This document shows positions 1-29,145 of a stretch of 64,000 nt of DNA, in pieces. The stretch's first letter is position 1. Each line of letters starts with the position of its first letter. Source of the DNA: the human T2T-CHM13v2.0 reference genome, Homo sapiens. Location: NCBI RefSeq assembly GCF_009914755.1, contig NC_060934.1; one strand, 5' to 3'. Under the pieces are notes generated by a model. The model was not told the origin of the DNA. It saw only the letters and a list, made by a program, of their open reading frames with translations, and did not search any database. The translations under genes were made by a program, and so were the position numbers.

Positions 1-132
1 TTTCTCTACCTTAGTAATTGTTTGAAAATTCTATAATAGAAAAAAACCTCTAAGAGCATAATAAAACTAAATACCCACTGATATGCCCCAAAGTGCTGAG
101 TTTACAGTAAATACTAGATCAGTATTTAATAA

Positions 133-456
<324 letters not shown>

Positions 457-716
457 TAATCATTGAGAATAATTCATGTGCTTTATCAAAAACACCTTAT
501 TATTCCATTAAACTTACTGAGTAGAACAAAAATGATCATAAAGATGTTTCAAAGAATATGTTCCAATTTAACTGGCTAAAAAAATTTGTGTATATATTCG
601 TTATTACCAAATGTGGGATTGGCATCAAAATGTGGATGATCAAAAATAATTTCTTAAACAGATTATTCTGTGTTGTGTGTAATGATAGAAGAATTCCTTC
701 ATTTATTTTTCCCGAA

Positions 717-838
717 TTAAGATGAGCAACCAAGTCTGAGATCTTTAGCCCAGGAAGGAGTAGGTGAGGCATAGCCTGCTTTCTTGGCTGTCGAATGCTT
801 CTCAAAAGGATGCTGAAGAACTTGCTGGTAAGATGCAC
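717..838 (-). pseudogene. Duplicated SelO-like terminal exon VHL-[-1]-QQVLQHPFEKHSTAKKAGYASPTPSWAKDLRLGCSS*
   Basis: Aligns by eye to 29023-29145; 122 nt (1-nt deletion); ccag| acceptor retained. Confidence 0.9.
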
Positions 839-2658
839 CTGGTAAGCAATGTGGGCAGATAAATATAGCTTATAATTACTCAGGACCCTGATGACTTTCT
901 ACATTTCTAAATGGCAAGGTCAATTTTAAATGTTTAAAAATATTTATACTTTGGGAAGCAGAGGCAGGCAGATCACTGGAGGTCAGGAGTTGGAGACCAG
1001 CCTGACCAACATTGCGAAACCTTGTCTTTATTAAAAACACAAAAATTAGCCGGGCATGGCGGCATCTGCCTGTACTCCCAGCTACTTGGGAGTTTGATGC
1101 AGGAGAATGGCTTGAAACTGAATGTGGAGGATGCAGCGAGCCGAGATCACCACACTATACTCCAGCCTGGGCAACAAAGCTAGATTGTCTCAAATCGAAC
1201 AAACAACAATAAAAGTTCATACATTTTCTTTTATGAAAAATCTCAACTCTAGTTGTTACTTAGAATTGCTATTATTCCACAGAAATTCCTTAAGTACTAT
1301 TTTTGTACTAAACTAAGAGAAGGAATATGTACACTGTCATGGAGAGTACAAATATATCCCCATCATTTTAAGATCCCTTTACAGCATGAAGAGAATTCTA
1401 ATTTTCTAAAATATTTAGCAAAAAAAAGAATGTCAGTGATTTGCAATCTTTCCAAATGAAGGGCATGAATTCCAGCTCATGCTGCTTCCTCACTGGGAAT
1501 TTGGCTGTATAGTAATGAACTGAGGCATCAATGACACACTTCTTTCAACAATAAATCTGAGAACTGAAATGTTTATTTTCCGTGATTTTGCTATTTCTTG
1601 GGGCTTATGAAGGAAACGCTTAGTCAGAATAGAGAGGGTGGATGACAATACCATGAAATTAAAGGTGAGAGGTGAAGTAGAACATTTTATTGTATCACTA
1701 GTATTTTAAATATAAAGATTGCATCTTCATGAATACGGGGCTTTTGGAGCCCATCTTAGCACTTCTCCCCAGGTACGTTCAATACATATCATTTTATTGA
1801 AGTTGCTTGTATACCTATCAGTCTCACCTACTAGGTAAACGGCTCCTCTAGTTGATTCTTACATTTCTCTACTGCATCTTGCCTTGAGTCGATTCTAAAG
1901 ACATGTTTGATGAAAGAAGTTAAATACCAGTCACACGTGAAAAGGGCTGCATCTAGAAAGCTGCTCTATCAACGAAATCATTAAAAAATATGATGTACTC
2001 AGTGTAGGAATTTTAGGAAACTTCCCTATTATACTTGCTAGTTTGAATGAATATGTGTGTTATTTCCAAAAACATATAAATTGAATATATAATTATTAAG
2101 TGTGTATGTATATATACATATATATATACATGATATATTTATGTTAACATCACAGAGTAGACTTAACTCATGGCAAAGTTTTTTTCAAGCACCTGCAGAA
2201 ATCTGTCTTCTTTCCAGTTTCGAAAACCTTCACAAGCCATGGTGGAAAGAGGATCCTTTGGATCCCAGAGAGTGCATGAAGCACGTTGGGTTACAGTAAT
2301 TTTAAAATAGCTCATAGTCATAATTCACAATGAGGAAAGCTGAAAGTTGCTGGAAGCTATCAATGAATGAAAGGTGGGGCAGGGCAGCTGTGGGGGCGGG
2401 GCCTTGTGAGCCAGTGCCTGGACTCCCCCATCACAAATGGAAGGGCGGCACGTGGAGGGAACTCAAGGCCTGATTGGTTCCTCCTAAGCAGGAGGCGATC
2501 TAGTTGGCAGGGCAACCGGCCTTCAGTTAGTGCCTTCAGTGGGTGCCTTCCGTTGGTGGCATTTGGTTGCCTTTCCCGGGGAGAGGTGGCAGGTGCTCAG
2601 CTCTGCAGGCGTGGGGGCAAGGAAGGACCAAGCAGCCCGAGAAGAGCAGAGGTGCCCC

Positions 2659-3001
2659 ATGGGGACCACGATGACTTGTCACATGTGCACCAAAGCCAGC
2701 CCAAGGCAGGGCCTGTGCAGGGCTTCTGCGGAGCCCTCCTGAGGCTCTAACATCTATGAGTGGGCAGCCAGCATAGGCGCAGGCCCCTGCAGAGAGGAAC
2801 AGAGACGCCAGGAACACGCTGTCGCCCAATGCCAGCCCCAAGCGGGGCCTGCTCTGGGTGCAGTGTTGGGAGCAGTCCTGCAGCTCTGAGATCCATTAGT
2901 TGGAGGTGGGAGAAGTGCCAGATTCCACTGATTTGGAACCTGCCCAGTCTGATTCCGGAGCCGTGACTTACAGCATATTGGCTACCAGAAGACACCCAAA
3001 G
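2659..3001 (+). pseudogene. Degenerate cyclin-Y-like (CCNYL-type) coding exon 1, cassette A1
   Basis: MGTTMTCHMCTKASPRQGLCRASAEPS* resembles recalled CCNYL1 MGNTLTCCVSPNASPKLGRRAGSAELYC; ends QHIGYQKTPK G|GTAGGG vs QHISDREMPE D. Confidence 0.75.
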
Positions 3002-5417
3002 GTAGGGAGGAGACAGTTCGCTTTCCTATCCCCGGCCCCAAGCAGGAGGACTTGCTCTGACTCGACTCCCCACCCCTTCCTCTTTCCCTGTTGCATCCAG
3101 CCGATTACTTTCCCTTGCCCTGTCCAAATGCCCACCTCTGGGCCCTCTTCTTTTCCTAGGTTGGCCAAAAACAAAGTTTTCAAAATACAAAATGGATGCT
3201 AAGATTTCATTACGGTAGACGAAATGTCTGACAGCTCTTGTATTTAAACGTAAGTAGCCACACTGGGACTCCCAATTTCATATCTTGAGTTCTAGAACAG
3301 AGCTCTCTCTCCTAAAGTAATGGCTGAGGGTCAGATGTACTCTTCTTGATTCTAATAATAAGAAATGATGTTTTGTAGAGACAGGGTCTCACTGTGTTGC
3401 CCAGGCTGGTCTCAAACCCCGGGCCTCAAGTGATTCACCCACGTTGGCCTCCCACTTCGTTGGGATGACAGGCAAGAACCACCACACCAGGCCTTGATAG
3501 GTGCTCCTGCTTTGTGTGTTTTGGCTGGTCTTCCTGCGCAGCTGTCAGTAAGATGCTCCTGCAGCATAGTTCCAAATCTTTTTGCAATAATTCAGTGGAT
3601 GCTGTCATTTTTTACATGGAATAGCCACTTTGTCGCAGAGAAGCTGGACAATTCACACTTGGTAACATACAGCTTAGCAAATTTCATTTCTTGATCAACA
3701 AGTTAAAAGGTGATGCTTGTGGTCTAAATACGCAGATTCCTAATCATCCCCAAGAAAAAGGGAACCATTGCAAGGCAACCTGGGAGGGAGTTTAGGATTG
3801 TTCTGAGGCAGTGCCGGCCATTGAAATTCACACACAAGGGGATAGAAAAGACAATCCACATGTCCTAATCCCTCCATGTTCTGGTTATAACTTGGTCCTC
3901 CTTAAACTGCACTATTTTTGGCCTCAGAGAAAACTGAATTTGAATACCAGTTCCATCACTCTTTATGATGTGATGGTGAATGTGTTTTTAACTCATCTGA
4001 GCCTCAGTTTGCTCATCTATAGAAGATGTGACTGTTATAAGGCTTCCATAAGGTTAGTGTGTAAAACCATGGCAAAATGCTTGTAATTTAAAAGAGAGGT
4101 TTGTTATGAGGCTTCTATAAGGCAAGTGTGTAAAAATCTGGACACAATGTCTACAATTTTGTAAATGTTCAATATGTGGAGAAGGAGGATTATCTTTCAT
4201 TTAATATTTAGGGCAATTTTATAAAATTGGAGATCTCATATTTTTGAGATAATCAAACCAAGGATTAGAAAGACTAAATAAAGCACAATAGTCACAAAGC
4301 AGTTCACAATACATTTACTGGGTAATTTCTAGTTAAAAGTAGCAATGATTGTCACACTGAAAATCTCATATTTTGTAGTGGTTTCCTCTTACATAAGCTC
4401 TCGCTTTGTTGAAAGGATAGATTCTAAGCTGCTCTATCAAAGTGATCATTAGAAAAATGTGACATACTTAGTGTGTAAATTATAGAAAATTTCTTGTTAG
4501 TCTTGTTAATTTGATAGAACATGTGTGTTGTTTTCAAAAATGTAAATCAAATGTATGTGCATTGAATATATATATGAATATGTGAAATATGACTTGACAT
4601 TATAGGGTAGGCTTAGCTCATGGCAATGTTTTTTTTGTGAAAGTACCTGCAGAAATCTCTCTTATTTCTAGTTTGTTAATGTTTCAGAGATTATGGGGGA
4701 AAGGGGATTCTATGAATCCCTGACACTGCATGAAGCAGTTTTGGTTTCAGTAATTTTAGTATCATTCATTGTAAGGTGATGATTCCTAGGAACTTCTTCA
4801 CAGTGAGAAACCTGAAAGTTCCTAGCAGCCAGCAATGAATGCAAGCGGGGGCAGGGCCACTGGCAGTGAGGGGCCTTGTGAGCCATGTGCCTGTGTTCTC
4901 AAGTTCCAGGGTTCTGGGGATGCATGCAGGGGATTCTGGACCTGATTGTTTCCTCTGAACCAGGATGCATTCTGGTTGGCAGGGCAACTGGCCTTCACTT
5001 GGTGGCCTTCAGTGGGTGCCCTCATTGGTTGCCTTCAGTTAGTGCCCTCAGTTGGCACCCTCAGTTGTTTCTCTTCAGTCTGTGGTCCGCAGTTGGTGGT
5101 CTTCAGTTGTTGGGCAGTGGTGAAAGGAGGATGAATCCATTTGTGCTCTCTCCTCCCCCAGACACAGCTCTCAGGCTTGTTGCATCCGGACCCTTCTAAA
5201 ATAAACCAGACAGGTTGGCAAGTTTTTTTTTTAGCAGACAAGTCAGCTCAGGGTACAGGGGTGATGCAAGGTGCGGGCTGCTAGTGCAGTGCCGCCCCAT
5301 GGCCCAGGGCTGCCCGTGCCAGCCATACGTTTGCCGGGAAGAGGTGATAGGTGTTGAGCTCTGTAGACTTGGGGGCAAGCGAAGGCCCAAGCAGCCCGAG
5401 AAGAGCAGAGGTGCCCC

Positions 5418-5769
5418 ATGGGGACCACACTGAACTGTCACATGTGCACCAAAGCCAGCCCCAGTCAGGGCCGGCACAAGCGTTCTGCAGAGCCAGCCTG
5501 AGGTTCTGATGTCTACGAGTATGCAGACAGCGAAGGTGCAGGCCGCGATATATAGGAGCAGAGGCACCCTGAACACGCTGTCCCCCAATGCCAGCTACAA
5601 GTGGATCCAGCTAAGAGTGCGGAGGGAGAAGCCGTCCTGCAGCTCTGAGATCCACGAAGTAGAGGTGGTAGTAGCACCGGACCCCACTGCTTTGGAGCCT
5701 GCCCAATCGAATTTGGGAGCCAGCGAGGTTCCTGACTGCAGCACATTGGCCACCAGAAGACACACAAAG
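5418..5769 (+). pseudogene. Degenerate CCNYL-type coding exon 1, cassette B1
   Basis: MGTTLNCHMCTKASPSQGRHKRSAEPA*GSDVYE; then NTLSPNAS...CSSEIHEV...ALEPAQSNLGASE..LQHIGHQKTHK, donor AG|GTAGGG. Confidence 0.8.
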
Positions 5770-7668
5770 GTAGGGAGGCTTCGGATACCACTTAAGTTTA
5801 GGAACTCCTCTGGTTGCTGCTGGCCCAAAGTTCCCCCAGAGGCATTCAAGGCCTGGGGCTCCTGCCTCCTGCCCCTAGTTTGCTATCCTAAGCCCAGGCC
5901 TCAAGCAGGAGGACTGGCTCTGCCTCACCTCCCCACCCCTTCTTTTTTCCCTGCTGTGTGCAGCCAGTTTCTTTCCTCCTACCTACCCCAATGCCCAGTT
6001 CTGGGCACTCCACTTCTTCCCCTAGGCTGTCTGAAAACCACATTTTTAGGATACAAAATGTATGCTATAGATTTCATTGCTGTAGAGGAAATGTCTGACA
6101 GCTGTTGTATTTAAACTTAAGTAGCCACACTGGGACTCATAATTTCATATCTTGAGTTCTAGACCAGAGCCCTCTCTCCTAAAGCAATGTCAGAGGGTCA
6201 GAGGTAATCTTCTTGATTCTAATAATAATAAATGATTTTTTGTACAGACAGGGTTTCACTGTGTTGCCCAGGCTTGTCTCAAACTCCTGGCCTCAACTCA
6301 TCCACCCATCTTGGCCTCCCACTTTGCTGGCATGATAAGCAGGAACCACCACACCTGGCCTTTGGAGGTGCTCTAGCTTTGTGTGTTTTGGCTAATCTTC
6401 CTGCACAGCTGTCAGTAAGATGCTCCTGCAGTATGGTTCCAAACCTTTCTACACAATCCTGTGATATTTTTACATGGAAGAGCCTTTTGTTTACTGCAGA
6501 GAAGCTAGACAATTCACAGTTAGTAACCTAAGGCCTAGAAAATTTTGTTTCTTGATCAAAACAACTGTTTATAGATGCTTGTGGTCCAAAGATGCAGATT
6601 CCTAATCATAAAAAAGAAGAAGTGATGTCCACTGCAGGCAACCAGGGAGGGAGTTTAGGATTGTTCTGAGGCCGTGAAAGCCATTGAAATTCACCCATAA
6701 GAAGGCAGAGCAAGGGAATCCACATGTCTTGATCCCTCCATGTGGAGGGTATAATTGGGTCTTCATGAAGGTGCACCACCTTTGGGGTCAGAGAGAATTG
6801 GATTTGAATCCCAGTTCCAACACTCACTACAAAGTGATGGTGAATGAGTTTTTAAATCCTCTGAGCCTCAGTTTGCTCATCTGTAAAAGAAGTGATTCTT
6901 ATGAGGCTTGTATTAGTTTAGTGTGTAAAAATCTGGGAATAATGCCTGTAATTTAAAAGACAGGTTGTTATGAGGCTTCAATAAGGTAAGTGTGTAAAAA
7001 TCTGGACACAATGCCTTTAATTTTGTAATTGTACAATATATGAAGGTGGAGGATTATTTTTCTCTCCTTTTATTTTTAGAACAAGTTTATACAATTGGCA
7101 TTATTCCTATTTTTAAGATAATCAAAGGACCAACAAGTTGAAATAAATCACCATACTCACAAAGCAGTTCACAATATATTTACTGGGTAATTGCTACTTA
7201 AAAGTAGCAATGATGATCACATTGAAAATCTTGTATTACGTGGTGGTTTTCTCTTCCATGAGCCTCTTCATTTGTGGAAACCATAGAGTCTAAGTTGCTC
7301 TATAAAAGTGTTCATTAGAAAAATGTGATGCACTTAGTGTATAAATTTTAGAAAATTTCCACTGTTAGTCTTGTTAATTTGATTGAATATGTGCGTTTTG
7401 GATTATGAATGTGAATATGTATTGATATATGAAATAAGACTTGACATCATACAGTAATCTCAGCTCATGGCAATGTTTTCTTCTGAAAACACCTGCTGAA
7501 ATCTGTATTATTTCTAGTTTCCAAAAAAAATCAGTCACGACGGGGCCAAGGGGATGTTTGAATGTCAGATACTGCATGAGGCACATTAGTGTACAGTAAT
7601 TTGCGCATAATTCATATTCATAATTCACAGTGAGGAAATCTGAAAGTTGCTACCAGCTACTAATAAAT

Positions 7669-7925
7669 GGAAGGTGGGGCGGGCTGCTGTGGGGATGGGG
7701 CCGCTGTGGGGGCGGGGCTGCCGTGGGGGCGGGGTCGCTGTGGGGGCGGGGCCTTGTGAGCCAGTGCTTGGACTTCCACGTCATAAACGGAAGGGCGGTG
7801 CGTGGAGGGAACTCAAGGCCTGATTGGTTCCTCCTAAGCAGGATGCGATCTGGTTGGCAGGGCAACCGGCCTTCAGTTAGTGCCTTCAGTGGGTGCTTTC
7901 AGTTGGTGGCATTCGGTTGCCTTTC
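7669..7925 (+). promoter_or_regulatory. Candidate promoter of cassette A2: GC-box repeats, CRE-like CACGTCA, inverted CCAAT, RFX X-box, MYB-type sites
   Basis: Repeated gggggcgggg units at 7669-7753; tgATTGG ~7821-7827; GTTGGCAGGGCAAC at 7853-7866; CAGTTA/CAGTTG/CGGTTG downstream. Confidence 0.6.
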
Positions 7926-8008
7926 CTGAGGAGAGGTGGCAGGTGCTCAGCTCTGCAGGTGTCGGGGCAAGGAAGGACCAAGCGACCTGAGAAGAGCAGA
8001 GGTGCCCC

Positions 8009-8335
8009 ATGGGGACCACGCTGACTTGTCGCATGTGCACCAAGGCCAGCCCCACTCAGGGCCCTCACAGGGCTTCTGCAGAGCCGTCCTGAGGCTCTGA
8101 CATCTATGAGTCGGCGGCCAGCAGAGGCGCAGGCCCCAGCACAGAGGAGCAGAGGCACCCGGAACAAGCTGTCCCTTAATGCCACCCCAAGCGGGGCCAG
8201 CTCAGGATGCGGTGTTTGGAGCAGTCCTGCAGCTCTGCGATCCACGAGGTGGTGGTGGGAGTAGCGCCAGAGTCCACTGCTTTGGAGCCTGCCCCGTCTG
8301 ATTCAGGAGTCATGACGACCAGAAGACGCCAAAAG
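8009..8335 (+). pseudogene. Degenerate CCNYL-type coding exon 1, cassette A2
   Basis: MGTTLTCRMCTKASPTQGPHRASAEPS*GSDIYESAA (cf. CCNYL1 ..YCASDIYEAV); donor AAG|GTAGGG at 8335/8336. Confidence 0.8.
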
Positions 8336-10860
8336 GTAGGGAGACTACAGATACCGCTTGGCCTTAGGAGCTCCTTTGGCAGTTGCTCACCCATGGTTCC
8401 CCCCAGAGGCACCCACAGCCTAGGGCTCCTCCCTCCTGCCTCTAGTTTGCTTTCCTAGGCCCAGGCCCCAAGCAGGAGGACTTGCTCTGATTCCACTCCC
8501 CATCCATTCTTCTTTCCCTGTTGCATCCAGCTGGTTACTTTCCCTTGCCCTGTCCAAATGCCCACTTCTGGGCCCTCTTCTTCTTTTCTTAGGCTGGTCA
8601 AAACTAAGACTTCAGATTACAAAATGTATGCTACAGATTTCATTACGGTAGAGGAAATATGCGACAGCTCTTGTATTTAAACTTAAGTAGCCACATTGGG
8701 ACTCCCAATTTCATATTTTTCGTTGTAGAGCAGAGCTCTCTCTCCTAAAGTAATGGCTGAGGGTTAGAGGTACGCTTCTTCATTCTAATAATAAAAAATG
8801 ATTTCTCATAGAGACAGGGTCTCACTGTGTTGCCCAGGCTGGTCTCAAACCCCTGGCCTCAAGTGATTCACTCACGTTGGCCTCCCGCTTTGTTGGGATG
8901 ACAGGCAAGAACCACCACACCTGGCCTTGGGAGCTGCTCCTGCTTTGTGTGTTTTGGCTGGTCTTCCTGCACAGCTGTCAGTAAGATGCTCCTGCAGCAT
9001 AGTTCCAAATCTTTCTGCACAAATTTAGTGGATGATGTGATTTTTTACATGGAATAGCCCCTTTATTTATTGCAGAGAAGCTGGACAATTCACACTTAGT
9101 AACATATGGCCTAGCAAATTTCATTTCGTGATCACCACACCTGTTAAAAGGTGATGCTTGTGGTCTAAATATGCAGATTCCTCATCATCCTCAAGGAAAA
9201 GGGAACCACTGCAAGAAAACCTGGGAGGGAGTTTAGGATTGTCCTGAGGCAGTGCAAGCCACTGAAATTCACACACAAGGGGTTAGAAAAGAGAATCCAC
9301 ATGTTCTCATCTCTCCATGTTCTGGGTATAACTTGGTCCTCCTTAAATTGCACCATTTTTGGCGTTAGAGAAAACTGGATTTGAATACCACTTCCATCAC
9401 TCTTTATGATGTGATGGTGAATGTGTTTTTAACTCATCTGAGCCTCAGTTTGCTCATCTATAGAAGATGTGATTGTTGTAAGGCTTCCATAAGGTAAGTG
9501 TGTAAAAACCATGGCAAAATGCTTGTAATTTAAAAGAGAGGGTTATTATGAGGCTTCTATAAGGTAAGTGTGTAAAAGTCTGGACAAAATGTCTACTATT
9601 TTGTAAGTGTTCAATATGTGGATAAAGTGGATTATCTTTCTCTCCTTTTTAGACCACAAATTTTTAGACCAAGTTTATAAAATTAGGGATACTCCTATTT
9701 CTTAGACAATCAAACAAATGATCAGAAAGACTAGATAAATCACCATAGTCACAAAGCAGTTCACAATGCATTTACTGGGTAATTTCTAGTTAACAGTAGC
9801 AATGATGATCACATTGAAAATCTTGTATTTTGTGGTGGTTTTCTGTTACGTAAGCCTCTTGCTTTGTTGAAACCATAGATTCTAAGCTGCTTTGTCAAAG
9901 TGATCATTAGAAAAATGTGATGTAGTGTGTAAATGTTAGAAAATTTCTCCTGTTAGTCTTGTTAATTTGATTGAACATGTGTGTCATTTTCAAAAATGTA
10001 AATCAAATATATGTGAATGGGATATATATGTATACATATGAAATATAACTTGAATTAGAGAGTAGGCTTAGCTCATGGCAATGTTTTTTCTGAAAGCACC
10101 TGCAGAAATCTCTCTTATTTCTAGTTTGTTGATGTTTCAGAGATTATGGAGAAATGGCGGTTCTATGAATCTCAGACACTGCATGAGGCAGATTTGGTTT
10201 CAGTAATTTTAGCATCATTCATTGTAAGGTGATGATCCCTAGGAACTTCATCACAGTGAGAAACCTGAAAGGTCCTAGCAGCCAGCATGAATGAAAGGTG
10301 GGGCGGGGCTGCTGGCAGGGCAGGGCCTTGTGAGCCATATGCCTGTGCTCTCAAGTTCCAGGATTGTGGGGATGCATGCAGGGGATTCTGGACCTGATTG
10401 TTTCCTCTGAACCAGGATGTGGTCTGGTTGGCAGGGCAACTGGCCTTCACTTGGTGGCCTTCAGTGGATGCCCACATTGGTTGCCTTCGGTTAGTGCACT
10501 CAGTTGGTACCCTCAGTTGTTTCTCTTCAGTTGGTGGTCTTCAATTGTTGGGCAGTGGCAGAAGGAGGATGAATCCGTTTGTGCTCTCTCCTCCCCCAGT
10601 CACAGCTCTCAGGCTTGTTGCCCCCAGGCCCTCCTAAAATAAACCAGAGATGTTGGCAGGTTTTTCTTAGCAGACTAATCAGCTCAGGATATGGGGGTGA
10701 GGCAGGGTGTAGGGTGCAGGTTGCTAGCACAGTGCCGCCCCATGGCCCAGGGCTGCCTGTGCCAGACATGCCTTTGCAAGGAAGAGGCAATAGTTGTTGA
10801 GCTCTGCAGACTTGGGGGCAAGCGAAGGTCCAAGCTGCCTGAGAAGAGCAGGGGTGCCCC

Positions 10861-11211
10861 ATGGGGACCACACTGAACTGTCACAAGTGCACCAAAGTCA
10901 GCCCCAGTCAGGGCTGGCAGAAGGGTTCTGCAGAGCCAGCCTGTGGCTCTGATGTCTACCAGTGTGCAGACAGAGAAGGCGCAGGCTGTGATATACAGGA
11001 GCAGAGGAGCCCTGAACACGCTGTCCCCCAATACCAGCCACAAGCGGGGCTATCTCAGGGTGCGGTGGGTGAAGCCGTCCTGCAGCTCTGCGATCCATGA
11101 GGTGGAGGTGGCAGTACTACCAGACTCCACTGCTTTGGAGCCTGCCCAGTCGAATTTGGGATCCAGTGACAGACCTGACAGCAGTACATTGGCAACCAGA
11201 AGATACCCCAG
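10861..11211 (+). pseudogene. Degenerate CCNYL-type coding exon 1, cassette B2 (79-aa ORF from the ancestral ATG)
   Basis: MGTTLNCHKCTKVSPSQGWQKGSAEPACGSDVYQ...; donor CAG|GTAGGG at 11211/11212. Confidence 0.8.
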
Positions 11212-12669
11212 GTAGGGTGGCAACGGATACTGCTTAACTTGAGAAGAGCCTCAGTTTTCTCATCTATATAAGATGTGATTGCTATGAAGCTTCCATAAGG
11301 TAAGTGTGTAAAAACCATGGCAAAATGCTTGTAACTTAAAACAGAGTGTTTCTATGAGGCTTCTATAAGGTGAGTGTGCAAAAATCTGGACACAATACCT
11401 ATAATTGTTTAAGTGTTCAGTATGTGGAGAAGGAGGATTATTTTTTCTCATCTAATTTTTAGAGCGAGTTCATAAGATTGGTGATACTCATATATCTTAG
11501 ACAATCAAACCAATAATCAGAAAGAATAAATAGATCACCAGCGTCACAAAGCAGTTCACAATGCATTCACTGGGTAATTTTTAGTTGAAAGTAGAAATGA
11601 TGATCACATTGAAAATTTTGTATTATGTTGTGGTTTTCTCTTACATAATCCTCTTGGTGTCTTGGTGTTATGAAACCACAGATTCTAAATTGCTCTACAA
11701 AGTGATCATTAGAAAAATCTGATGTACTTAGTGTTTAAATGTTAGAAAATTTCTTGTTAGTCTTCTCAATTTGATTGAACATGTGTGTTATTTTCAAAAA
11801 TGTAAATGGGACATATGTGGATTTGTTATATATGTGTATATATGAAATATTACTTGATATTATAGAGTAGGCTTAGCTCATGGCAAAGTTTTTTTCTGAA
11901 AGCACCTGCAGAAATCTCTCTTATTTCTAGTTTGTTAATATTTCAGAGATTATGGGGGAAAGGGGGTTTTATGAATCCCAGACATTGCGTGAAGCAGATT
12001 TGGTTTCAGTAATTTTAGCATCATTCATTGTAAGGTGATGATCCCTAGGAATTTCTTCACAGTGAGAAACCTGAAGGTTCCTAGCATGCAGCAATGAATG
12101 AAAGGTGGGGCGGGGCCACTGGCATGGTGGGGCCTTGTGAGCCATGTGTCTGTGCTCTCAAGTTCCAAGTCTGTAGGGATGCATGCAGGGGATTCTGGAC
12201 CTGATTGTTTACTATGAACCAGGATGCGGTCTGGTTGGCAGGGCAACTGGCCTTCACTTGGTGGCCTTCAGTGGGTGCCCTCATTGGTTGCCTTCGGTTA
12301 GTGCCCTCAGTTGGTACCCTCAGTTGTTTCTCTTCAGGTGGTGGTCCTCAGTTGGTGGTCTTCAGTTGTTGGGCAGTGATGGAAGGAGGATGAATCTGTG
12401 CTCTCTCCTGCCCCAGTCACAGCTCTCAGGCTTGTTGCATCCAGGCCTTTCTAAAATAAACTGGACAGGTTGGCAGGATTTTTTAGCAGACAAGTCAGCT
12501 CAGAGTATGGGGGTGATATGGGGTGCATGCTGCTAGCGCAGTGCCACCCCGTGGCCCAGGACTGCTTGTGCTAGCAATGCTTTTGCCAGCAAGAGACGAT
12601 AGGTGTTGAGCTCTGCACACTTGGGGGCAACCAAAGGCCCAAGCTGCCCAAGAAGAGCAAGAGTGCCCC

Positions 12670-13020
12670 ATGGGGACCACATTGAACTGTCGCATGTGCA
12701 CCAAAGCCAGCCCCAGTCAGGGCCGGCACAAGGGTTGTGCAGAGCCAGCCTGTGGCTCTGACGTCTATGAGTGTGCAGACAGCGCAGACGCAGCCCGCAA
12801 TATACAGGAGCAGAGTTGCCCTGAACACGCTGTCCCACAATGCCAACCACAAATGGGGCCAGCTAAGGGTGTGGTGGGAGAAGCCATCCTGCAGCTCTGA
12901 GATCCACAAAGTGGAGATAGCAGTAGCACCAACTCCACTGCTTTGGAGGCTGCCCAGTCGAATTTGGGAGCCAGCGAGGGACCTGACAGCAGCACATTGG
13001 ACACCAGAAGACACCCAAAG
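12670..13020 (+). pseudogene. Degenerate CCNYL-type coding exon 1, cassette B3 (76-aa ORF from the ancestral ATG)
   Basis: MGTTLNCRMCTKASPSQGRHKGCAEPACGSDVYE...; ends QHIGHQKTPK G|GTAGGG at 13020/13021. Confidence 0.8.
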
Positions 13021-14281
13021 GTAGGGAGGTGGCAGATACTGCTTAAGTTCAGGAGCTCCTCTGGCCGTTGCTGACCCAAAATTCCCCCAGAGGCATCCAC
13101 AGCCTGGGGCTCCTTCCTCCTGCCTGGAGTTTGCTTTCCTATGCCCAGGCCCCAAGCAGGAGGACTGGCTCTGCCTCGAGTCCTCACCCCTTCTTCTTTC
13201 CCTGCTGTGTCCAGCTGGTTTCTTACTTTCCTCCTACCTACCCCAATGCTCAGTTCTGTTTCCTCTTCTTCTTCCCCCAGGCTGGCTGAAAACTAAGTTT
13301 CAAAATACAAAATGCATGCTACAGATTTCATTGCTGTAGACGAAATATCTGACAGCTTTTCTATTTAAACTCTGGTTGTTCTCTTCATTTCTTTAAACAT
13401 TAGAATAATTAAGCCTCATAATAGATGTGCCTTTGTAACTTGAAAGTATGACCCTCAATTTTCACAATTAAAAAAATTTAATTTTTCTTTTCATAAATTT
13501 TTGGCACAGGTAGTATTTAGTTATTGAGTAACTCCTTTAGTGGAGATTTGTGAGATTTTGTTGCACCCATCACCCAAGCAGTACACATGGAATCCAATTT
13601 GTAGTCTCTTATCTTTCTCCCCCTTCCCGCGGTTTTCCCCTGAGTATCATTCTTTTTTTTTGAGACTGAGTCTTATTCTGTCACCCAGGCTGGAATGCTA
13701 CGTCGCGATGTCAGCTCGCTGCAACCCTTGCTTCCTGAGTTCATGTGATCCTCCTGCTTCAGCCTCCCAAGTAGCTGGGATTAGAGGTGTGGGTCACGAC
13801 GCCCGACTAAATTTTTTGTATTTTTAGTAGTGACTGGCTTGCACCAAATTGGCCAGTCTGTTCTCGAACTCCTGACCTCAAGTGATCTGCCTGTCTTGGC
13901 CTCCCCTCAGGCAGGGATTACAGGAATCAGCCACCAGAACCCAGCCAAACTTTCCCCTTTTTTGTTTTTTTTTTTTTTTTCTAATTTCCTGAAGTCATTC
14001 TTTGAGTTGTCATGTAGATTAATGGGTTTCTCAAACTACTAGAAAACTAGTTGAAGAAATAAACAGGCAGTTTGTGAATATTAAACAGGACAGTGGTGCT
14101 GAGCACGGCTAAAGCATCTCTGCATTCACAGGGAGAGGAGCGGAAGACCTTCTGGTGTGGGCTGGGCAGCAATTCACTTGAAGGAGAAACAGCCCGGGTG
14201 TGGAGAGGCGGCCATCCTTGGCGGGATCCTTTCTAAGGAGCCGAGAAATCAACGTAGAGCTTCCTCTATCTGATTCTCTAA

Positions 14282-14781
<500 letters not shown>

Positions 14782-15294
14782 TGAGCCACCACCCCCAGCC
14801 CAATATATTCTTTGTTAAGGACAATGTTCAAAAGTTGTTCCTGTACTCAGCACGGTATGAAACTAGATAAATACATTTTTGGGAAATCAACAATGGAGAA
14901 TTTTTTTGAAAGAAAATTGATTTTCAAGGTTTATTCTTCAATTATCAAAAGCTTTTCAAAAGTAAAACATACTATTCCTCTCCACAATCCCAGTTAATCC
15001 AGACCCTTCTTGGTGGGCTTTATCAAATACCCTACTCACCTTCCTGAATCTTTTGCTGAATCTCACATAAAGTTTTGTCACAGAACCTCAGCTTTTTCAT
15101 AAGGTTTTGTGTACCACGTCATGCCTGTAAATTGTTTTCTCTGCTTTGTTTTTATTTTTATTTTTTTGTAAGAAGTAGCTAGGAAGTATCTTTCTTTGCT
15201 TTATAGATGTAAGCTGCTTTGTATTTTCAGGTTAACTTTCTAGAATGTTGAAAATTCCTTGTTCACTCATCTTTTCTCACTTCCTCCCTCTCAG

Positions 15295-15398
15295 GACCTA
15301 TAAATGGCACCACCCAGCCCAATGGACAGATGCCCCAGGCTGCAGATTCTGTCAGTGCTGTTCTCGAAGAGGCCCAGGCACATGCTGAAACATGGAAG
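15295..15398 (+). pseudogene. Duplicated penultimate exon of APBB1IP (RIAM)
   Basis: ctctcag| acceptor, AAG|gtaaaa donor; (G)PINGTTQPNGQMPQAADSVSAVLEEAQAHAETWK vs recalled RIAM GPKTGTTQPNGQIPQATHSVSAVLQEAQRHAETSK. Confidence 0.88.
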
Positions 15399-15519
15399 GT
15401 AAAACCAGCAAGCAGCTGGCATACATTCCACCCAGCCGTCCCCCAGGAGAATTGCTTGAGCTCCGGAGTTCCAGACCAACCTGGGCAACAGAACAAGGGC
15501 TCATCTCTACTAGAAATCA

Positions 15520-15669
<150 letters not shown>

Positions 15670-16835
15670 TCATAAAAAAAGAAAAAAAGATAAAAATGGA
15701 TTGAATTTTCTATTTTCCCCATTAATGTTCTACGTATATCCCCAGGGTGATGGAGGAGAAAATACATTGTAAAATAATAGCCAATAGGTATGACATCCTC
15801 CATAACATTTTTTCAACCGAATAGATCAATGAGGATTCACTTAAATCTATCTTAAAATCATAGCTAATAATCATGATTTAGTTACTAATCTAATTCAAAA
15901 CCTCTCAGTTGACTGTATAAATTCTGTTGAATATTTCTCATGTGTGATTCAAAACAACCTTAAATAACTGTGACAATAGCATATCACCCAGCTAGGACAG
16001 GCAGGGTGCTTCACTTTAGCAGTTTTTCACTTCTTTCACCCCTTCATGTTGTCCATCAGTCAGTCATGAAAACAACTAAATCTTGGTATTTATTGAACTT
16101 CTTATAATTTTGACAACCACTGCAGGCCTGTAAAAGTTGTATTTCTTTAATGTTCTCATTATCTTCTCAAGCCTGCGCTTCTCACGCAATGTACTTTCAG
16201 CTGTTATTATTTTCATTATTTCCATAATGCCAATCGAAGGAAAGCATTTAAAAATGCTGAAAGAAATAAAAGAATCCCAGAATAGAAATCACTTAACTAT
16301 ATGTGAACATCAATACCCAAGCTGCCTGTTCAGAAATTTTTTAAAAAGGAAAAAGTACATTGCCAGTTAATTAGCTTATCATGCTAAGTAAATAAACTAA
16401 ATAAAATAGAAACTAAGTCAGAAGGCACTTCGTTAGAAAAAAAATCTTCCAAATTTAATCTTCAGTGGTAACAGGCTATTAAGCAGAGGAAGAAATAAAC
16501 TGGAGCCCTGATGAAATGTAAATTGGAATGATAATTATCACTAAAACAGAGGGATTCAATCCAGCTGCCTGGGGATGTTTCATTATATAAATACAAATTA
16601 TTATTATCTATGCCAGTATTGGCAGAGGAAGGGCTATGTCTCTATTAGACTTTAGCCAAATTTGGCATTCTGGTTTCTACCAGTAGCACGCTGGTGATTT
16701 TTCTTTTCAGAACTCATATAAGTATCTCATTTGATCTCATCACGATCTGAGACACAGGTCATAATAGGGACTACAGGGCTCATTTTATACCCGGTGAACC
16801 AGCCAACTTTCATGCAGTTGAGAAAAAGTAAACTG

Positions 16836-17477
<642 letters not shown>

Positions 17478-17798
17478 CTATTCCAGAGCAAAGATGAGCT
17501 CATGAACAACCAGGGTTCTCAGTGACTGAGGGACGGGGGCCCCCCAGGCGGCAGACAGAGACCTCACATATCTATGGCATGGTCTTGTCCACTGGGGCTC
17601 TTTTGTCAAGAATAAAGAATGCTACTCAGGAGACTGAGGCGGGAGGATCGCTCAGGAGGTCGAGGTTGTGGTGAGCCCAGATCGTGCCATGCACTCAGCC
17701 TGGGTGACAGAGTGAGACCCTGTCCCCGTTAATTAATAACAATAAATTAAAATTTCAAAAACTTTAAAATAATAAATGCTGCTGTCGCTTGGTTGCAG

Positions 17799-18135
17799 GA
17801 TAAGAAGCCAGCCCTCGGGAACCACCAGGAGCCAGGAGCACCCCCGGCCCCCCAAGGCCCCAAGTCCAGCCTGCCCCACCCCCTCCGGTGCAGAGGTCCT
17901 GTGACACCAGTGGCAGCCCCGCCACACCCCCCAAGGCCAAGGGCACAGGCAGCGTGGTCTTCCCCGCCCCGCCCGACTACTTCCTGCCGCCACAGCCACC
18001 AATGCCGCCCCTGGAGTACCCAGAGCTCCCGCTGCCGTCCCCGGACTTCATGGAGACCCCCCTGGACTTCGTGCTCCCTCCCCTCGCTGTCGCCAAGAGG
18101 CCTCCTATGCCCCACCCCCCCCAACAGGCACGAAG
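17799..18135 (+). pseudogene. Duplicated, truncated terminal (proline-rich) exon of APBB1IP (RIAM)
   Basis: ttgcag| acceptor; DKKPALGNHQEP..PKSSLP-[frameshift ~17878]-VQRSCDTSGSPATPPKAKGTG..PELPLPSPDFMETPLDFV..AVAKRPP matches the recalled RIAM C-terminus with an internal deletion; AATAAA at 18161-18166. Confidence 0.9.
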
Positions 18136-18422
18136 CATCAATGTTCACAAGCAGCAAATGAATAAAAGTTAAACGTTCTTCCTACTGCATTTCTATAAGG
18201 ATTATTGGGTCAGTCGATCTTGAGGTCAACACTATAATTAAAACTAGCTTTCACCATCCCATGCCTTCTTAAGTCTTGGTGACCTTAGATTTTCAGCTCT
18301 ACCTCTGCGACCTTCAGAATTTTCAGGAAAATAGAGGAAAACGAGAAAACATGACAATCTCTTTCTCTGAGATTCCTGTTGCTTGATTGCTTGGAGCCCT
18401 GGACACAGGCTGTTTTGGTTTC

Positions 18423-18425
<3 letters not shown>

Positions 18426-18453
<28 letters not shown>

Positions 18454-18736
18454 GAGAGGGAGTCTTGCTCTGTTGCCCAAGCTGGAGTGCAGTGGCGCGA
18501 TCTCGGCTCACTGCAAGCTCCTTCTCCTGGGTTCACGCCATTCTTCTGCCTCAGCCTCCCAAGTAGCTGAGACTACAGGCGCCCGCCACCACGCCCGGCT
18601 AATTTTTTCTATTTTTAGTAGAGACGGGGTTTCACCGTGTTAGCCAGGATGTGGTCTCGATCTCCTGAGCTCGTGATCCACCCGCCTCGGCCTCCCAAAG
18701 TGCTGGGATTACAGGCATGAGCCACCACGACCGGCC
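18426..18736 (-). mobile_element. AluY
   Basis: Long poly-T, cactgcaagctcc, gttcacgccattc, accgtgttagccaggat; many CpGs retained. Confidence 0.88.
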
Positions 18737-19057
18737 TGGTTTTGCTTTTTTAATGCTTGAATAACAGTAATTTTAAAAATAGTTATTCAGATAGTTTTTG
18801 AATTCTCTATTATTACAGTGCTGTAAGTACCCTGTAAATAAGAATGTAGGGCCAGGTAAAAGCAATCTTACTGATGTATATTTCAATCTGGAATGTTTTC
18901 CCTCAGGGATACATTTAATGCCCAGTTTATCCTAGGCTCTTTTTACCTATATCTCTTCTCTTTCAAATTGGCTTCGGATGGGCTAAAAGGCTATTTTCTT
19001 AAAATTAAGGAAGGTAATTAATGGTATGTTTTAATATTTGGGGAAAAGTAAGCTGTA

Positions 19058-19537
19058 GATCATGCTGTCTCAACCCACGGGCTCCCGTGGCCCAGGACAA
19101 CTTTGAATGCTGCCCAACAAATATTAAAACATTATAAGCTCTTTGTAGGGCGCGGTGACTCACACTTGTAATCCCAGCACTATTGGGAGGCCAAGGCTGG
19201 CAGATCACTTGAGGTCAGGAGTTTGAGACCAGCTTGGCCAACATGGCAAAACCCTATCTGTACTAAAAATACAAAAATTAGCCAAGTGCGGTGACGCATG
19301 CCTGTAATCCCAGCAACTCCAGAGGCTGAGGAGGAGAATCCTTTGAACCCAGGAGGTGGAGGCTGCAGTGAGCTGAGATCTTGCTACTGCACTCAATCCT
19401 GGACGACAGGGCAAGACTCTCTCTTTAAAAAATTATGAGATCTTTTTGCAATTTTTTTTTTTTAGCTGATCAGCTATTGCTAGTGTTAGTGCATCATATG
19501 TGTGTCCCAGGGAAGCTAAAAGATTGGACACCCCTTC
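19058..19537 (-). mobile_element. MER30-like hAT DNA transposon interrupted by a plus-strand Alu (~19146-19430)
   Basis: cccagggaagctaaaagattggacacccc terminus, ttagctgatcagctattgctagtgttagt, ggcccaggacaactttgaatgc; taaaacatta/taaaaaatta flank the Alu. Confidence 0.75.
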
Positions 19538-21006
19538 AGGCTAAATGGAAATTTAAAATGAAGCAAATTTAGTTTTAAAACCAAAATATTTACTAACTAA
19601 AACTGGCAATGTGTTCTTAATTTTTTTAAGCATATGCTTGAAATAGGATAGAAGGTAAATTTGCTTCACATTAAATTTTATCTCAGGAACAGTAACTCTC
19701 CAGTTTTAGTATATCATGTTCTTTTGATGTCAGATACAGTAATAATACGGCTTTTCTTTTTACAAAAATTTTTAAAATTTTGTTTTACTTTAAGTTCCAG
19801 GATACATATGCAGAATGTGCAGATTTGTTACATAGGTAAACGTGTGCCATGGTGGCTTGCTGAACCTATCAACCCATCACCTAAATACGAGGCCCAGCAT
19901 GTGTTAGCTATTTGTCCTGATGCTCTCCCTCCCCTCAACCCCCCACAACAGGCCCCAGTGTATGTTGTTCCCCTCTTTGTGTCCATGTGAAAGACACAGC
20001 TTTTCTGATACCTGACTACATAATGGTCTTTATGCAGATCTCTGGGACAATACAGGAAAGGTTCAGCGAAGAGAGCTATGAAAGTTGTCAGAATCAAAGT
20101 GGAGTCACTCATGTTAAGAAAACGCCGACAAATAGAACCAGGCAAGTCCATGAATAGAGGGTTCTCATGACAATCGTCAACCCTGTGATTTTCACTCAAG
20201 TGGAACACAATCTTTGGTGTCTGGCTGTGAGGTCTTTACAAGTACCAGCTATACCTGAGTGGGGTTATTTAGATTGACCCTGAAAATGCAGCAAACTTTA
20301 TTCCTTTATGAAAATTTTAGTGAGATACTGGAGGTGAGGGGAGCGCAAAAGCTGGGGTGAAATTGGACGTTAGAGAGGAAGTGCAAGGATAATAATATAT
20401 TACGAACAGTGTATAATTAATAATATAGGGCAGTAATACTACACCACAGCTTATGAAAACTCCATAATTTCTTTTATAATGCTGCCACTGGGGCAAAGAC
20501 CCATGTAATAGGCCAACTGCAACAAAAACCACAGGGTTTGGAAGAGTTTACAGAAAATATGATTTAACCCGCCACATGATAGAATATGAACTTAGATTTT
20601 ACAGTAGGTCCTCAAAGAGGAGAATGAACATTTAAGCCACATTTTGTTTGATCATAGGAATCTTGGCTGGTATGATACTGAAATGATCCAAGTCCATGAT
20701 AATTGAGCCTTTGAAGTGTGCTTGAGACTTATGGCTTGATGTCTGATCCATTTTTACTGGTGGTTTATGTGTGCTTGGGTACAATGTACTATACATGTTC
20801 CTTAGAACAAGCTTGTTAAGCATGTTCCACAAATCTTCTGCCTGCAGCCTGTTACCTGGTCTGTTGCATCCATCAATTACTAAGAAGGATGTTTTAAAAT
20901 CTTCTGAGGGCAGATTTGTCAATATCTTTTCATTGTTCTGGTGAACTGTGCCTTATATATTCTGACATGGTTAATTATTAAGTGTAAACAAAAATTATGT
21001 ATGTGA

Positions 21007-21546
<540 letters not shown>

Positions 21547-21749
21547 TGAGCCACCACGAATGGCCTCTTCTTATGACTCTTACTGTGATTATATATTTGT
21601 ATTTGTTTTTAACATCTTATTTTGCACTTCCTATTACCCTGGATTTTTCTGGGGTTTTTATCTTCCTTTCTTGTCTGCTTCACGTGATTAGGATTTTTCT
21701 CTTACTCCCCTTTTTAAGCTTCTTGTTGAAAAGTTATATACTGTTTCTA

Positions 21750-22039
21750 TTCTTTTAATGGCTAGTTATAATGATAATATCTATACTCAATAATGTCCCA
21801 AGTTGAACAACTTTAACCTAGGAAACACATGGAGTTTGGCACACTTTGGTTTCAAACACACACACACACACATACACACATTATTGCCTAGTAGTTGAGT
21901 TATGGCTAACTTCTTTTTTTCCTAAAGTATCTTTATTTCTTTTAATGGCTAGTTATAATGATAATATCCATATTCAATAAAGTCCCAAGTTAAACAACTT
22001 TAACCTAGGAAATACATGGACTTTGGAATACTTTGGTTT

Positions 22040-22085
<46 letters not shown>

Positions 22086-22137
22086 TGCCTAGTAGTTGAG
22101 TTATAGCTGACTTCTTTTTTTCCTAGAGTATCTTTAT
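21750..22137 (+). repeat. Two-copy ~190-200 bp tandem duplication, each copy with a (CA)n tract
   Basis: 21750-21936 and 21937-22137 both start ttcttttaatggctagttataatgataatatc and end agtatctttat. Confidence 0.95.
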
Positions 22138-22669
22138 TTTACCTCATTCTTCAAAGATGGTTTCAACGGATGTAAAATTTCAACTGACAGTAAAAACTCT
22201 CAGCTTTTTGAGGAAATTGTCCCCACTGTCTTCTCCCTTTCACTGTTGCTGTTGAGAAGTCAGCTGTCAAATTATTATTTCTATTAGGTCATCTCTTTGT
22301 TTCCCCTCTGCATGATTTTAAGACCTTTTCTTCGTCTTTGGTGCACACAGTAGGTATAACTGTGGGTTTCTTTTTGCTTAAGTTGCCTGATATTTTACTG
22401 AGGTTTCTGAATCTAGAATATCTGTCTTTCACTATTCCAGAAAAATGTAATTTATATTGTTTTCAAACATTGCCTCTCCTTATTCGCTTCTTCTAAAATT
22501 CTAATGAAATATATGTTAGATCTTCTAGCACTAGCCTCCGTATCTCTTAATTGTGTATATTTTCCATTTCTTTATCAATTCCGGTTATATTAATCAGACA
22601 TTAACTCCTATTCACTAATTCTTTTCTTCAGCACAATCTAATCTATGTTAAAGCCATCCATTTTTGGTT

Positions 22670-25215: not shown

Positions 25216-25764
25216 TACTTCCAGGAGTTTTTTGGTCAGTTATCCTGGTGGCCTCCTGAAGAGTCCTCCTCTAGACCCAGGGTTAAGGATGTGCATTATT
25301 TTCCTCCCCATACATAAGACTATCAAAGGTAAGGTAGGGGAAAGTGCAAGGCAACAGCTCCCTGCAGTGTTCTCCACTCCACATCCTTTCATATTGTTAA
25401 AGCAGGTGAGGAGAATTAATATTTGTGGAGCAGGTTCTCAGATATTTGCTATGAAAACCTACATATGGTGATTTAGACTTTCACAGCTATTATATCTTGA
25501 GAGTCTGATGAAACTTTAATTTTAACCTATTGTTCAATCAGTATAGTTTCTATTAGAAAAATTCATAGGAGAAAAAACAACTATTTCAATAAACATCAAA
25601 AAGGCTCTTGATAAAATTCAACACCACTCCTTGTTAAAAAAAATTTAAAACTTCATAAGAAACTAGCAATTGAGGAAGATGTTTCTATATTGATAAAAGT
25701 TATTAGAAACCTACAGCAAAAGGCATATTTAATAACAAAGCATGAATAGAAATGTCATTTATTT

Positions 25765-29022: not shown

Positions 29023-29145
29023 TTAAGATAAGCAACTAAGTCTGAGATCTTTAGCCCAGGAAGGAGTAGGTAAGGTGTAGCCTGCTTTCTCGGCTGCCGA
29101 ATGCTTCTGGAAAGGATGCTGAAGAACTTGCTGGAGAAGATGCAC
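29023..29145 (-). pseudogene. SelO-like terminal coding exon VHLLQQVLQHPFQKHSAAEKAGYTLPTPSWAKDLRLSCLS*
   Basis: tactag| acceptor, 41 codons ending TAA; LxxPF...PxWA...SCSS-like tail with TGC (Cys), not TGA (Sec); minus-strand AATAAA at 29008-29013 and 28956-28961. Confidence 0.92.

What the first reader, a model, noticed from the sequence alone, without database searches (positions are those of the whole stretch)
2503..12372. Invariant RFX X-box plus MYB-site arrays in all five cassettes: a spermatocyte-type promoter code
Seen: GTTGGCAGGGCAAC is identical at 2503-2516, 4975-4988, 7853-7866, 10427-10440 and 12234-12247, although A and B units differ clearly around it. It overlaps CAAC(C/T)G and is followed by ~11-13 bp repeats of cc(t/c)tCAGTT(g/a)gt, more numerous in B units (e.g. 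5000-5112). Knowledge: this resembles the RFX palindrome, and CAGTTR/CCGTTR is the MYB site; RFX2 and A-MYB (MYBL1) drive pachytene/spermatid transcription, including pachytene piRNA precursors. Inference: promoter function was retained while coding capacity decayed. TCAGTT may alternatively act as repeated initiator elements.
Basis: partly seen in the sequence, partly recalled or inferred. Interest (0 to 1): 0.7.

Follow-up and report, generated by a model that had tools for sequence, protein, structure and literature searches.

The report
Copied cyclin-Y-like promoter behind FAM238 lncRNAs
The five repeats are broken tandem copies of the front end (promoter and first exon) of a primate duplicate of the sperm-cell gene CCNYL1; they carry an inherited RFX-type site that likely helps switch on the FAM238 non-coding RNAs in sperm-forming cells, but the site shows no clear sign of being protected today and the MYB-like repeats are no better conserved than the DNA around them.

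Summary
The 14-mer is exact at all five places and is one mismatch from the RFX consensus. But 62% of aligned columns are invariant, two longer invariant runs exist, and a run of 14 or more arises in 37% of shuffles.

The real finding is the origin. Each unit is a 5′ fragment (upstream DNA, promoter, exon 1, start of intron 1) of the chr16 CCNYL1B/CCNYL3 branch of CCNYL1 duplicates. At least 37 copies lie on ten chromosomes; 19 keep the exact box.

The box never changed on the deep branches (0 vs 5.4 expected, P 0.003) but mutates near background among later copies (8 vs 12.1, P 0.19). The MYB core likely arose by one CpG change (CAGTCG to CAGTTG), then tandem slippage; its cores are no more conserved than the rest of the array. 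The units richest in MYB motifs lack the CCAAT box and annotated starts. The locus is absent from a human piRNA-gene list.

Verdict: an inherited, likely germ-cell promoter module, not a demonstrably selected RFX+MYB code. Binding is untested.

The parts
1958..3249 (+). Unit 1 (A type), cut on the left at the junction with SELENOOLP-derived DNA
3250..6116 (+). Unit 2 (B type), full tandem unit: upstream DNA, promoter, full 5' UTR, exon 1, start of intron 1
6117..8682 (+). Unit 3 (A type); carries the annotated FAM238B start at 7847
   Evidence: annotation
8683..11245 (+). Unit 4 (B type), cut about 35 bp into intron 1
11246..13448 (+). Unit 5 (B type), left-truncated; the only unit whose intron homology to the chr16 gene runs on past the tandem junction
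2503..2516 (.). X-box-like site, unit 1 (one mismatch to RFX consensus)
4975..4988 (.). X-box-like site, unit 2
7853..7866 (.). X-box-like site, unit 3, 6 bp after the annotated FAM238B start
   Evidence: annotation
10427..10440 (.). X-box-like site, unit 4
12234..12247 (.). X-box-like site, unit 5
2519..2558 (+). 13-bp array, about 3 copies, 2 MYB-consensus matches
4989..5113 (+). 13-14-bp array, about 9 copies, 5 MYB-consensus matches
7869..7908 (+). 13-bp array, about 3 copies, 2 MYB-consensus matches
10441..10551 (+). 13-14-bp array, 3 MYB-consensus matches (below the TRF threshold; read from the alignment)
12248..12372 (+). 13-14-bp array, about 9 copies, 4 MYB-consensus matches
2473..2477 (-). 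CCAAT box, intact in unit 1; also intact in unit 3 (7823-7827); changed to ATTGT in the 3 B units
2362..2379 (+). AATGAATGAAAGGTGGGG element: the only other stretch unchanged on the deep branches; factor unknown
2659..3001 (+). Broken CCNYL1B-type exon 1 coding part, unit 1; first stop at codon 28; donor used by LOC105376461
5418..5769 (+). Broken exon 1 coding part, unit 2; first stop at codon 28; donor used by LOC105376461
8009..8335 (+). Broken exon 1 coding part, unit 3; first stop at codon 28
10861..11211 (+). Broken exon 1 coding part, unit 4; first stop at codon 80
12670..13020 (+). Broken exon 1 coding part, unit 5; first stop at codon 77; donor ends FAM238B exon 1
430..1960 (+). Left flank: 80% copy of the SELENOOLP last exon and intron (28748-30255); supplies the acceptor for the divergent RNA LOC102724202

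Best explanation
The five cassettes are tandem, non-coding copies of the promoter, exon 1 and first stretch of intron 1 of a CCNYL1B/CCNYL3-type duplicate of CCNYL1, and the two A-type copies likely still act as germ-cell promoters for the FAM238-type lncRNAs through an inherited CCAAT box plus RFX site. Shown: origin, unit structure, broken frames, reuse of the old exon-1 donor by annotated RNAs. Inferred: (1) the site grew out of a weaker X-box-like sequence in the parent promoter and was kept under selection while the ancestral CCNYL1B-type gene and its earliest copies were useful; (2) a single CpG deamination made one MYB core, which slippage multiplied; (3) after amplification both motifs drift near background rate; (4) an RFX factor (RFX2 by expression stage) would bind at the start site in spermatocytes and round spermatids, and the RNAs are probably by-products. 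Odds: origin about 0.97; germ-cell RFX-assisted activity of A units about 0.6.
For: Exon translation hits chr2:208,186,098, whose intact exon is 99% identical to gorilla CCNYL1. Orangutan 'CCNYL1B' and macaque 'CCNYL3' proteins align with window exons (E down to 2e-14) and at 84-94% with chr16:39.10 Mb. That chr16 locus aligns in order along upstream DNA, promoter, exon and intron of the units; cassettes plus chr16 copies form one clade, support 100/99. Deep-branch changes in the box 0 vs 5.4 expected, P 0.003; only one other stretch is as invariant. All 9 relatives outside this clade read CAGTC at the array seed (4 keep CAGTCGG, 1 has CAGTCAG), both chr16 copies read CAGTTGG once; CpG o/e 0.89 in the parent, 0.16-0.48 in the units. 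Annotated starts (2440, 7847, antisense 2408) sit at A units, which keep CCAAT. Mouse Ccnyl1 is high in meiotic cells and round spermatids (PMC4549061); RFX2 sites cluster at start sites (PMC4498915). An intronless chr16:23.78 Mb copy implies germ-line transcription of the family.
Against: No binding or accessibility data were reachable. Ccnyl1 is not in the four readable supplements of the mouse RFX2 paper. The one human germ-cell dataset puts all three aliases in a cluster its text calls spermatogonia-preferring (PMC4750114); the text's directions contradict its own staining legends, so the direction is unresolved. The deep-branch test was chosen after seeing the motif. A chr22:32.62 Mb relative has a perfect 13-bp X-box at the same place, so the site may be ancestral rather than improved in this branch. 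With chr16 included and the five window copies left out the box is still mildly conserved (8 vs 15.5-15.9, P 0.03-0.04).
Confidence: 0.6

Rival explanations
1. One reading: a selected RFX + A-MYB promoter code in all five units, kept while coding capacity decayed, driving pachytene (piRNA-precursor-like) transcription.
For: Box exact in 5 of 5 window units (0 changes vs 5.7 expected per window) and 11 of 15 chr10 copies; 2-6 MYB-consensus matches per unit against 0.11 per 100 bp background; clustered MYB sites overlapping RFX half-sites work in the mouse Rfx2 promoter (PMC2797782); FAM238B has a 5.2-kb first exon.
Against: Within A and B clades 8 changes vs 12.1 expected, P 0.19; dispersed copies 3 vs 2.2-2.6. 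MYB cores 0.37 changes per column vs 0.35 for the rest of the array in 10 B copies. MYB-rich B units lost CCAAT (10 of 10) and have no annotated start. No human piRNA gene on chr10 before 29.08 Mb in the hg19 list. Over 90% of A-MYB targets are not RFX2 targets.
Confidence: 0.15
2. The motifs are inert today: invariance reflects shared descent and possibly gene conversion, and the RNAs come from GC/CCAAT boxes in permissive testis chromatin with no RFX or MYB input.
For: Invariant runs of this length are expected in the five-unit alignment; several later changes hit consensus positions of the box; LINC03028 starts divergently from a FAM238A-cluster A unit whose box is damaged (annotation).
Against: Zero change across deep branches, including two chr16 copies 18-24% diverged at non-CpG sites; site lies at the annotated start (7847 vs 7853).
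Confidence: 0.18
3. The array works as repeated initiator elements (TTCAGT), spreading start sites, rather than as MYB sites.
For: 3-9 matches per unit to the initiator pattern BBCABW (pattern recalled); the seed unit in the parent matches this pattern but not MYB.
Against: The pattern is short and common (2.9 per 100 bp on both strands); annotated starts lie upstream of the arrays.
Confidence: 0.07

Closest known systems
CCNYL1 (cyclin Y-like 1) and its primate duplicate CCNYL1B/CCNYL3
   Same: Promoter layout, 5' UTR, exon-1 coding start and exon-1 donor are homologous.
   Different: Only the 5' 2.2-2.9 kb is copied; no cyclin box in the window (macaque CCNYL1 hits only with residues 1-42); frames broken; tandem amplification; array expanded from one unit; CpG island decayed.
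RFX X-box promoters of spermiogenesis genes (RFX2 targets, PMC4498915)
   Same: 14-bp inverted repeat at a start site, one mismatch from consensus.
   Different: Binding untested; no measurable recent constraint; drives non-coding RNAs.
A-MYB-driven pachytene piRNA genes (PMC7782496, PMC9808571)
   Same: MYB-consensus matches near a start; long first exon; divergent transcripts.
   Different: Not in the human piRNA-gene table read; MYB cores not conserved above their neighbours.
Pseudogene- and segmental-duplication-derived lncRNAs with a copied promoter (general class; recalled)
   Same: Partial gene duplicate keeps promoter and first donor and captures neighbouring exons.
   Different: The same module also begins a protein-coding gene, DRICH1, and recurs in dozens of places.

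Membership tests
CCNYL1-derived duplicates (CCNYL1B branch) | Homology of exon 1 to CCNYL1/CCNYL1B protein | tested here: met
CCNYL1-derived duplicates (CCNYL1B branch) | Colinear promoter, upstream and intron homology; grouping with chr16 copies | tested here: met
   (100/99)
Functional cyclin Y-like gene | Open frame with cyclin box | tested here: not met
   stops at codons 28, 28, 28, 80, 77; no cyclin-box hit in the window
RFX X-box | Match to GTNRCC(N0-3)RGYAAC | tested here: met
   one mismatch, one perfect half-site; 14 other such sites in the window
RFX X-box | Conserved above background | tested here: inconclusive
   yes on deep branches (P 0.003), not among later copies (P 0.19)
RFX X-box | Bound by an RFX protein in germ cells | not testable with these tools
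   no human testis ChIP or CUT&RUN data reachable
A-MYB target promoter | YAAC(G/T)G matches near the start | tested here: met
   2, 6, 2, 4, 5 per unit
A-MYB target promoter | Cores conserved above flanks | tested here: not met
   0.37 vs 0.35 changes per column, 10 B copies
A-MYB target promoter | A-MYB occupancy | not testable with these tools
   primary human dataset paper not held; no rows in readable supplements
Pachytene piRNA gene | Listed among human piRNA-producing loci | tested here: not met
   first chr10 row of the hg19 table is at 29.08 Mb; the locus lies near 26.9 Mb in hg19 (recalled); names absent
Pachytene piRNA gene | Small RNAs map to the locus | not testable with these tools
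   no small-RNA reads available

The most novel reading that the evidence does not exclude
The CCNYL1 5' module is an unrecognised primate promoter-and-first-exon donor: copied to more than 50 places, it hands germ-cell expression to new lncRNAs (FAM238A/B/C and divergent partners, chr4/9/20/acrocentric copies) and a shared N-terminus to new protein genes such as DRICH1, while its branches tune the promoter in traceable steps (RFX site sharpened or lost, MYB site born by CpG decay and multiplied by slippage). The 37 allelic-like copies would be a natural mutagenesis series for RFX/MYB/CCAAT logic in human spermatogenesis.
Probability: 0.3. Interest if true: 0.65.

Novelty: new member of a known kind. 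Interest (0 to 1): 0.4.

Why it matters
It gives the FAM238 lncRNAs an origin and a reason to be transcribed, and warns that motif identity across paralogues with 62% invariant columns is weak evidence of selection. It also shows a step-by-step route by which testis transcription-factor motifs can appear in a duplicated promoter. The many copies with natural motif variants make the RFX/MYB/CCAAT question directly testable with existing human testis data.

Tried and rejected
Pfam and PDB searches with window ORFs found nothing credible (one sub-threshold BcsO hit dismissed). The direct homologue search returned only 2 near-identical read-through translations; the HMMER library gave 18 unnamed hits, not opened. 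PDB search with the chr2 exon ranked cyclin Y first but weakly (E 0.074). Pfam copy here lacks the N-terminal family listed as PF27989. I first read the X-box as gained de novo in this branch; dropped after the chr22:32.62 Mb relative showed a perfect 13-bp box and the parent a two-mismatch one. Coding function rejected. piRNA-gene status not found. Literature: ten searches showed no listing that links FAM238/LINC00202/LINC00264 or DRICH1 to CCNYL1; two duplication papers had no mention in main text. Subscription papers and gene databases were not searched, so the link may be recorded there. The right flank (13450-27000) gave only short repeat-type matches to the SELENOOLP region.

Full report
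OBSERVATION. The 14-mer is exact at the five stated places; one more site with one mismatch lies at 48165; chance expectation is 0.5. The five units fall into two classes: A (U1, U3; 82% alike) and B (U2, U4, U5; 88-89%), 75-77% between classes. In that alignment 596 of 960 ungapped columns are invariant and the box is only the third-longest invariant run (18, 15, 14, 13 bp). Shuffling columns gives at least one run of 14 or more in 37% of 5000 trials; three such runs, as observed, in 0.9%. So identity in five copies alone does not single out the box. It has one mismatch to the RFX consensus GTNRCC(N0-3)RGYAAC (consensus from a passage of PMC5752003; test); 19 sites in the window meet that standard. 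Matches to the MYB consensus YAAC(G/T)G (passage of PMC2797782) number 2, 6, 2, 4, 5; the overlapping one counts only in B units.

WHAT THE UNITS ARE. The ATG exon of U5, searched against the human genome, hit 51 places, among them chr2:208,186,098 (weak, E 0.02). That place holds an intact exon 99% identical to gorilla cyclin-Y-like protein 1. The same search returned orangutan 'CCNYL1B' and macaque 'Cyclin Y like 3'; these align with the window exons at E down to 2e-14 and with chr16:39.10 Mb at 84-94% (output cut, so later rows were not seen). A 3.2-kb stretch of that chr16 locus aligns in order with upstream DNA, promoter, exon 1 and intron 1 of the units. In a tree of 13 relatives (3 of the 5 units, B type, because A units lack most of the 5' UTR) cassettes and the two chr16 copies form one clade, 100/99. 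Intron homology ends at the same point in U1-U3 (3249, 6116, 8682), which is the tandem junction, and runs on only in U5. All five frames stop early, and macaque CCNYL1 hits the window only with residues 1-42. Annotated RNAs reuse the old exon-1 donor at 3001, 5769 and 13020. Left of U1 lies an 80% copy of the SELENOOLP last exon and intron, whose acceptor is used by the divergent LOC102724202.

THE FAMILY. A DNA search scored 40 of 60 candidates; from those loci I recovered 37 promoter-bearing copies plus the parent: 15 on chr10 in three clusters, 20 on chr4, 9, 13, 14, 15, 20, 21, 22, and 2 on chr16. One further chr20 copy seen and several partial copies were not fetched, so 37 is a lower bound. 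The box is exact in 19 of 37; these are 19 of the 29 exact matches in the genome (control 2).

IS THE BOX CONSTRAINED? On the 37-copy tree it needs 8 changes against 17.3 expected from non-CpG columns (P 0.02). Leaving out the five window copies, which were chosen for invariance: 8 vs 12.8-13.9 without chr16 (P 0.09-0.14), 8 vs 15.5-15.9 with chr16 (P 0.03-0.04); the 20 dispersed copies alone show 3 vs 2.2-2.6. Splitting by branch: 0 vs 5.4 on the links between A, B and chr16 (P 0.003; 7 of 636 overlapping windows, from two stretches, are as low), 8 vs 12.1 inside the A and B clades (P 0.19). Reading: constrained early, not demonstrably since. The test is post hoc, parsimony undercounts, and gene conversion was not modelled.

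HISTORY OF THE MOTIFS. The parent has a two-mismatch 13-bp box at the same position and one array seed reading CAGTCGG; a chr22:32.62 Mb relative has a perfect 13-bp box; others have decayed or deleted it. The site is therefore inherited in some form; its direction of change needs an outgroup I could not fetch. All 9 relatives outside the clade read CAGTC at the seed (CAGTCGG 4, CAGTCAG 1, CAGTCTG 4); both chr16 copies read CAGTTGG once; cassettes have about 3-9 units or more. With CpG o/e falling from 0.89 to 0.16-0.48, CpG deamination followed by slippage is the simplest inference. In 10 B copies the five MYB cores change at 0.37 per column, the rest of the array at 0.35, the next 55 bp at 0.31, exon 1 at 0.55. 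Most dispersed copies keep 0-1 core. All 10 B copies have lost CCAAT; 24 of 25 A copies and both chr16 copies keep it. Annotated starts in the window sit at A units.

EXPRESSION EVIDENCE. Mouse Ccnyl1 is negligible in spermatogonia and rises from meiotic cells to round spermatids (passages of PMC4549061). RFX2 sites cluster at start sites, and over 90% of A-MYB targets are not RFX2 targets (passages of PMC4498915); Ccnyl1 is absent from its four readable supplements. PMC4750114 (passages, sections 6 and 35 part 1) lists LINC00202-1, LINC00202-2 and LINC00264 (FAM238 aliases, recalled) together in cluster 9 of sorted human germ cells. Its text calls that cluster spermatogonia-preferring, which is against my reading; but the same text describes clusters 1 and 4 opposite to its own staining legends, so the direction may be reversed. 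The supplement was unreadable. In the human piRNA-gene table of PMC7782496 (file 6, parts 1, 7, 8 and a search) no chr10 row precedes 29.08 Mb. PMC11615739, PMC9808571 and PMC9812935 supplements (searches only; one table cut, one file unsearched) and PMC6461890 main text had no FAM238 or CCNYL rows. PMC13720281 and PMC11926405 passages added nothing. An intronless chr16:23.78 Mb copy implies germ-line transcription of the family, although it begins about 350 bp upstream of the box, inside an Alu-like repeat.

MECHANISM. Shown: origin, structure, loss of coding, reuse of donors, motif matches. Inferred: a CCNYL1B-type promoter with CCAAT, GC box and RFX site was duplicated as a 5' fragment, amplified in tandem beside a SELENOOLP fragment, and the cluster copied three times on chr10 (flanks 91-92% alike) and dispersed further; A units would still fire in both directions in spermatocytes and spermatids with RFX help; B units lie inside the transcript and their arrays are probably passengers. 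Confidence 0.6 overall; rivals are a selected RFX+A-MYB code (0.15), inert motifs (0.18) and initiator arrays (0.07).

WIDER CONTEXT. The parent promoter and exon match 56 pieces genome-wide (40 candidates scored). One, chr22:24.08 Mb, is the first exon of human DRICH1. The chr10q11 and chr10:74.57 Mb copies look like AGAP4-11 starts and chr10:43.33 Mb like CCNYL2 (names recalled, untested). No paper listing in ten searches made this link (see Tried and rejected).

VERDICT. Observation partly confirmed, interpretation partly supported. A new member of a known kind (lncRNA promoter from a partial gene duplicate), with a traceable motif history. Interest 0.4.

Noticed in passing
window 1-140 and 430-1960 vs 28610-30255: The left flank is an 80-86% copy of the SELENOOLP last exon and intron, interrupted by a later Alu-like insertion; LOC102724202 exon 627-838 uses the copied acceptor. 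The same flank sits beside the other two chr10 clusters.
   Followed up: partly
window 3249/3250: The annotated donor of LOC105376461 exon 2 falls exactly on the tandem junction; U2 and U3 have T instead of G there, so this donor is new to U1.
   Followed up: yes
window 2362-2379 and equivalents: AATGAATGAAAGGTGGGG, 133 bp upstream of the box, is the most conserved stretch in the family (1 change in one 14-column window across 32 copies outside the window). Factor unknown.
   Followed up: partly
L072 (G000:C22:24078850-24079800): Human DRICH1 begins with the CCNYL1-type first exon and promoter.
   Followed up: yes
L075 and chr10:46.5-50.8 Mb hits: About ten chr10q copies of the CCNYL1 promoter/exon with the CCAAT and X-box region deleted in those fetched; recalled as AGAP4-11 starts, not verified.
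   Followed up: partly
L073 (G000:C22:32622700-32623700): Relative with a perfect 13-bp RFX consensus at the homologous position.
   Followed up: partly
L063 (G000:C16:23775500-23777300): Intronless CCNYL1B-type copy that still carries about 350 bp upstream of the X-box, starting inside an Alu-like repeat.
   Followed up: partly
L062 (G000:C16:39097300-39099300): The human chr16 gene has frameshifts in exon 1 relative to the open orangutan and macaque proteins.
   Followed up: partly
L066 (G000:C1:226653200-226655200): Tandem array of many diverged copies of the CCNYL N-terminal coding repeat, partly open in frame.
   Followed up: no
window 7676-7753: 17-bp GC-box repeat expanded to 4.6 copies upstream of the FAM238B start, only in U3.
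   Followed up: no
genome-wide: Ten exact matches to the 14-mer lie outside the family (chr4, 5, 6, 9, 11) against 2 for the reversed control; not examined.
   Followed up: no
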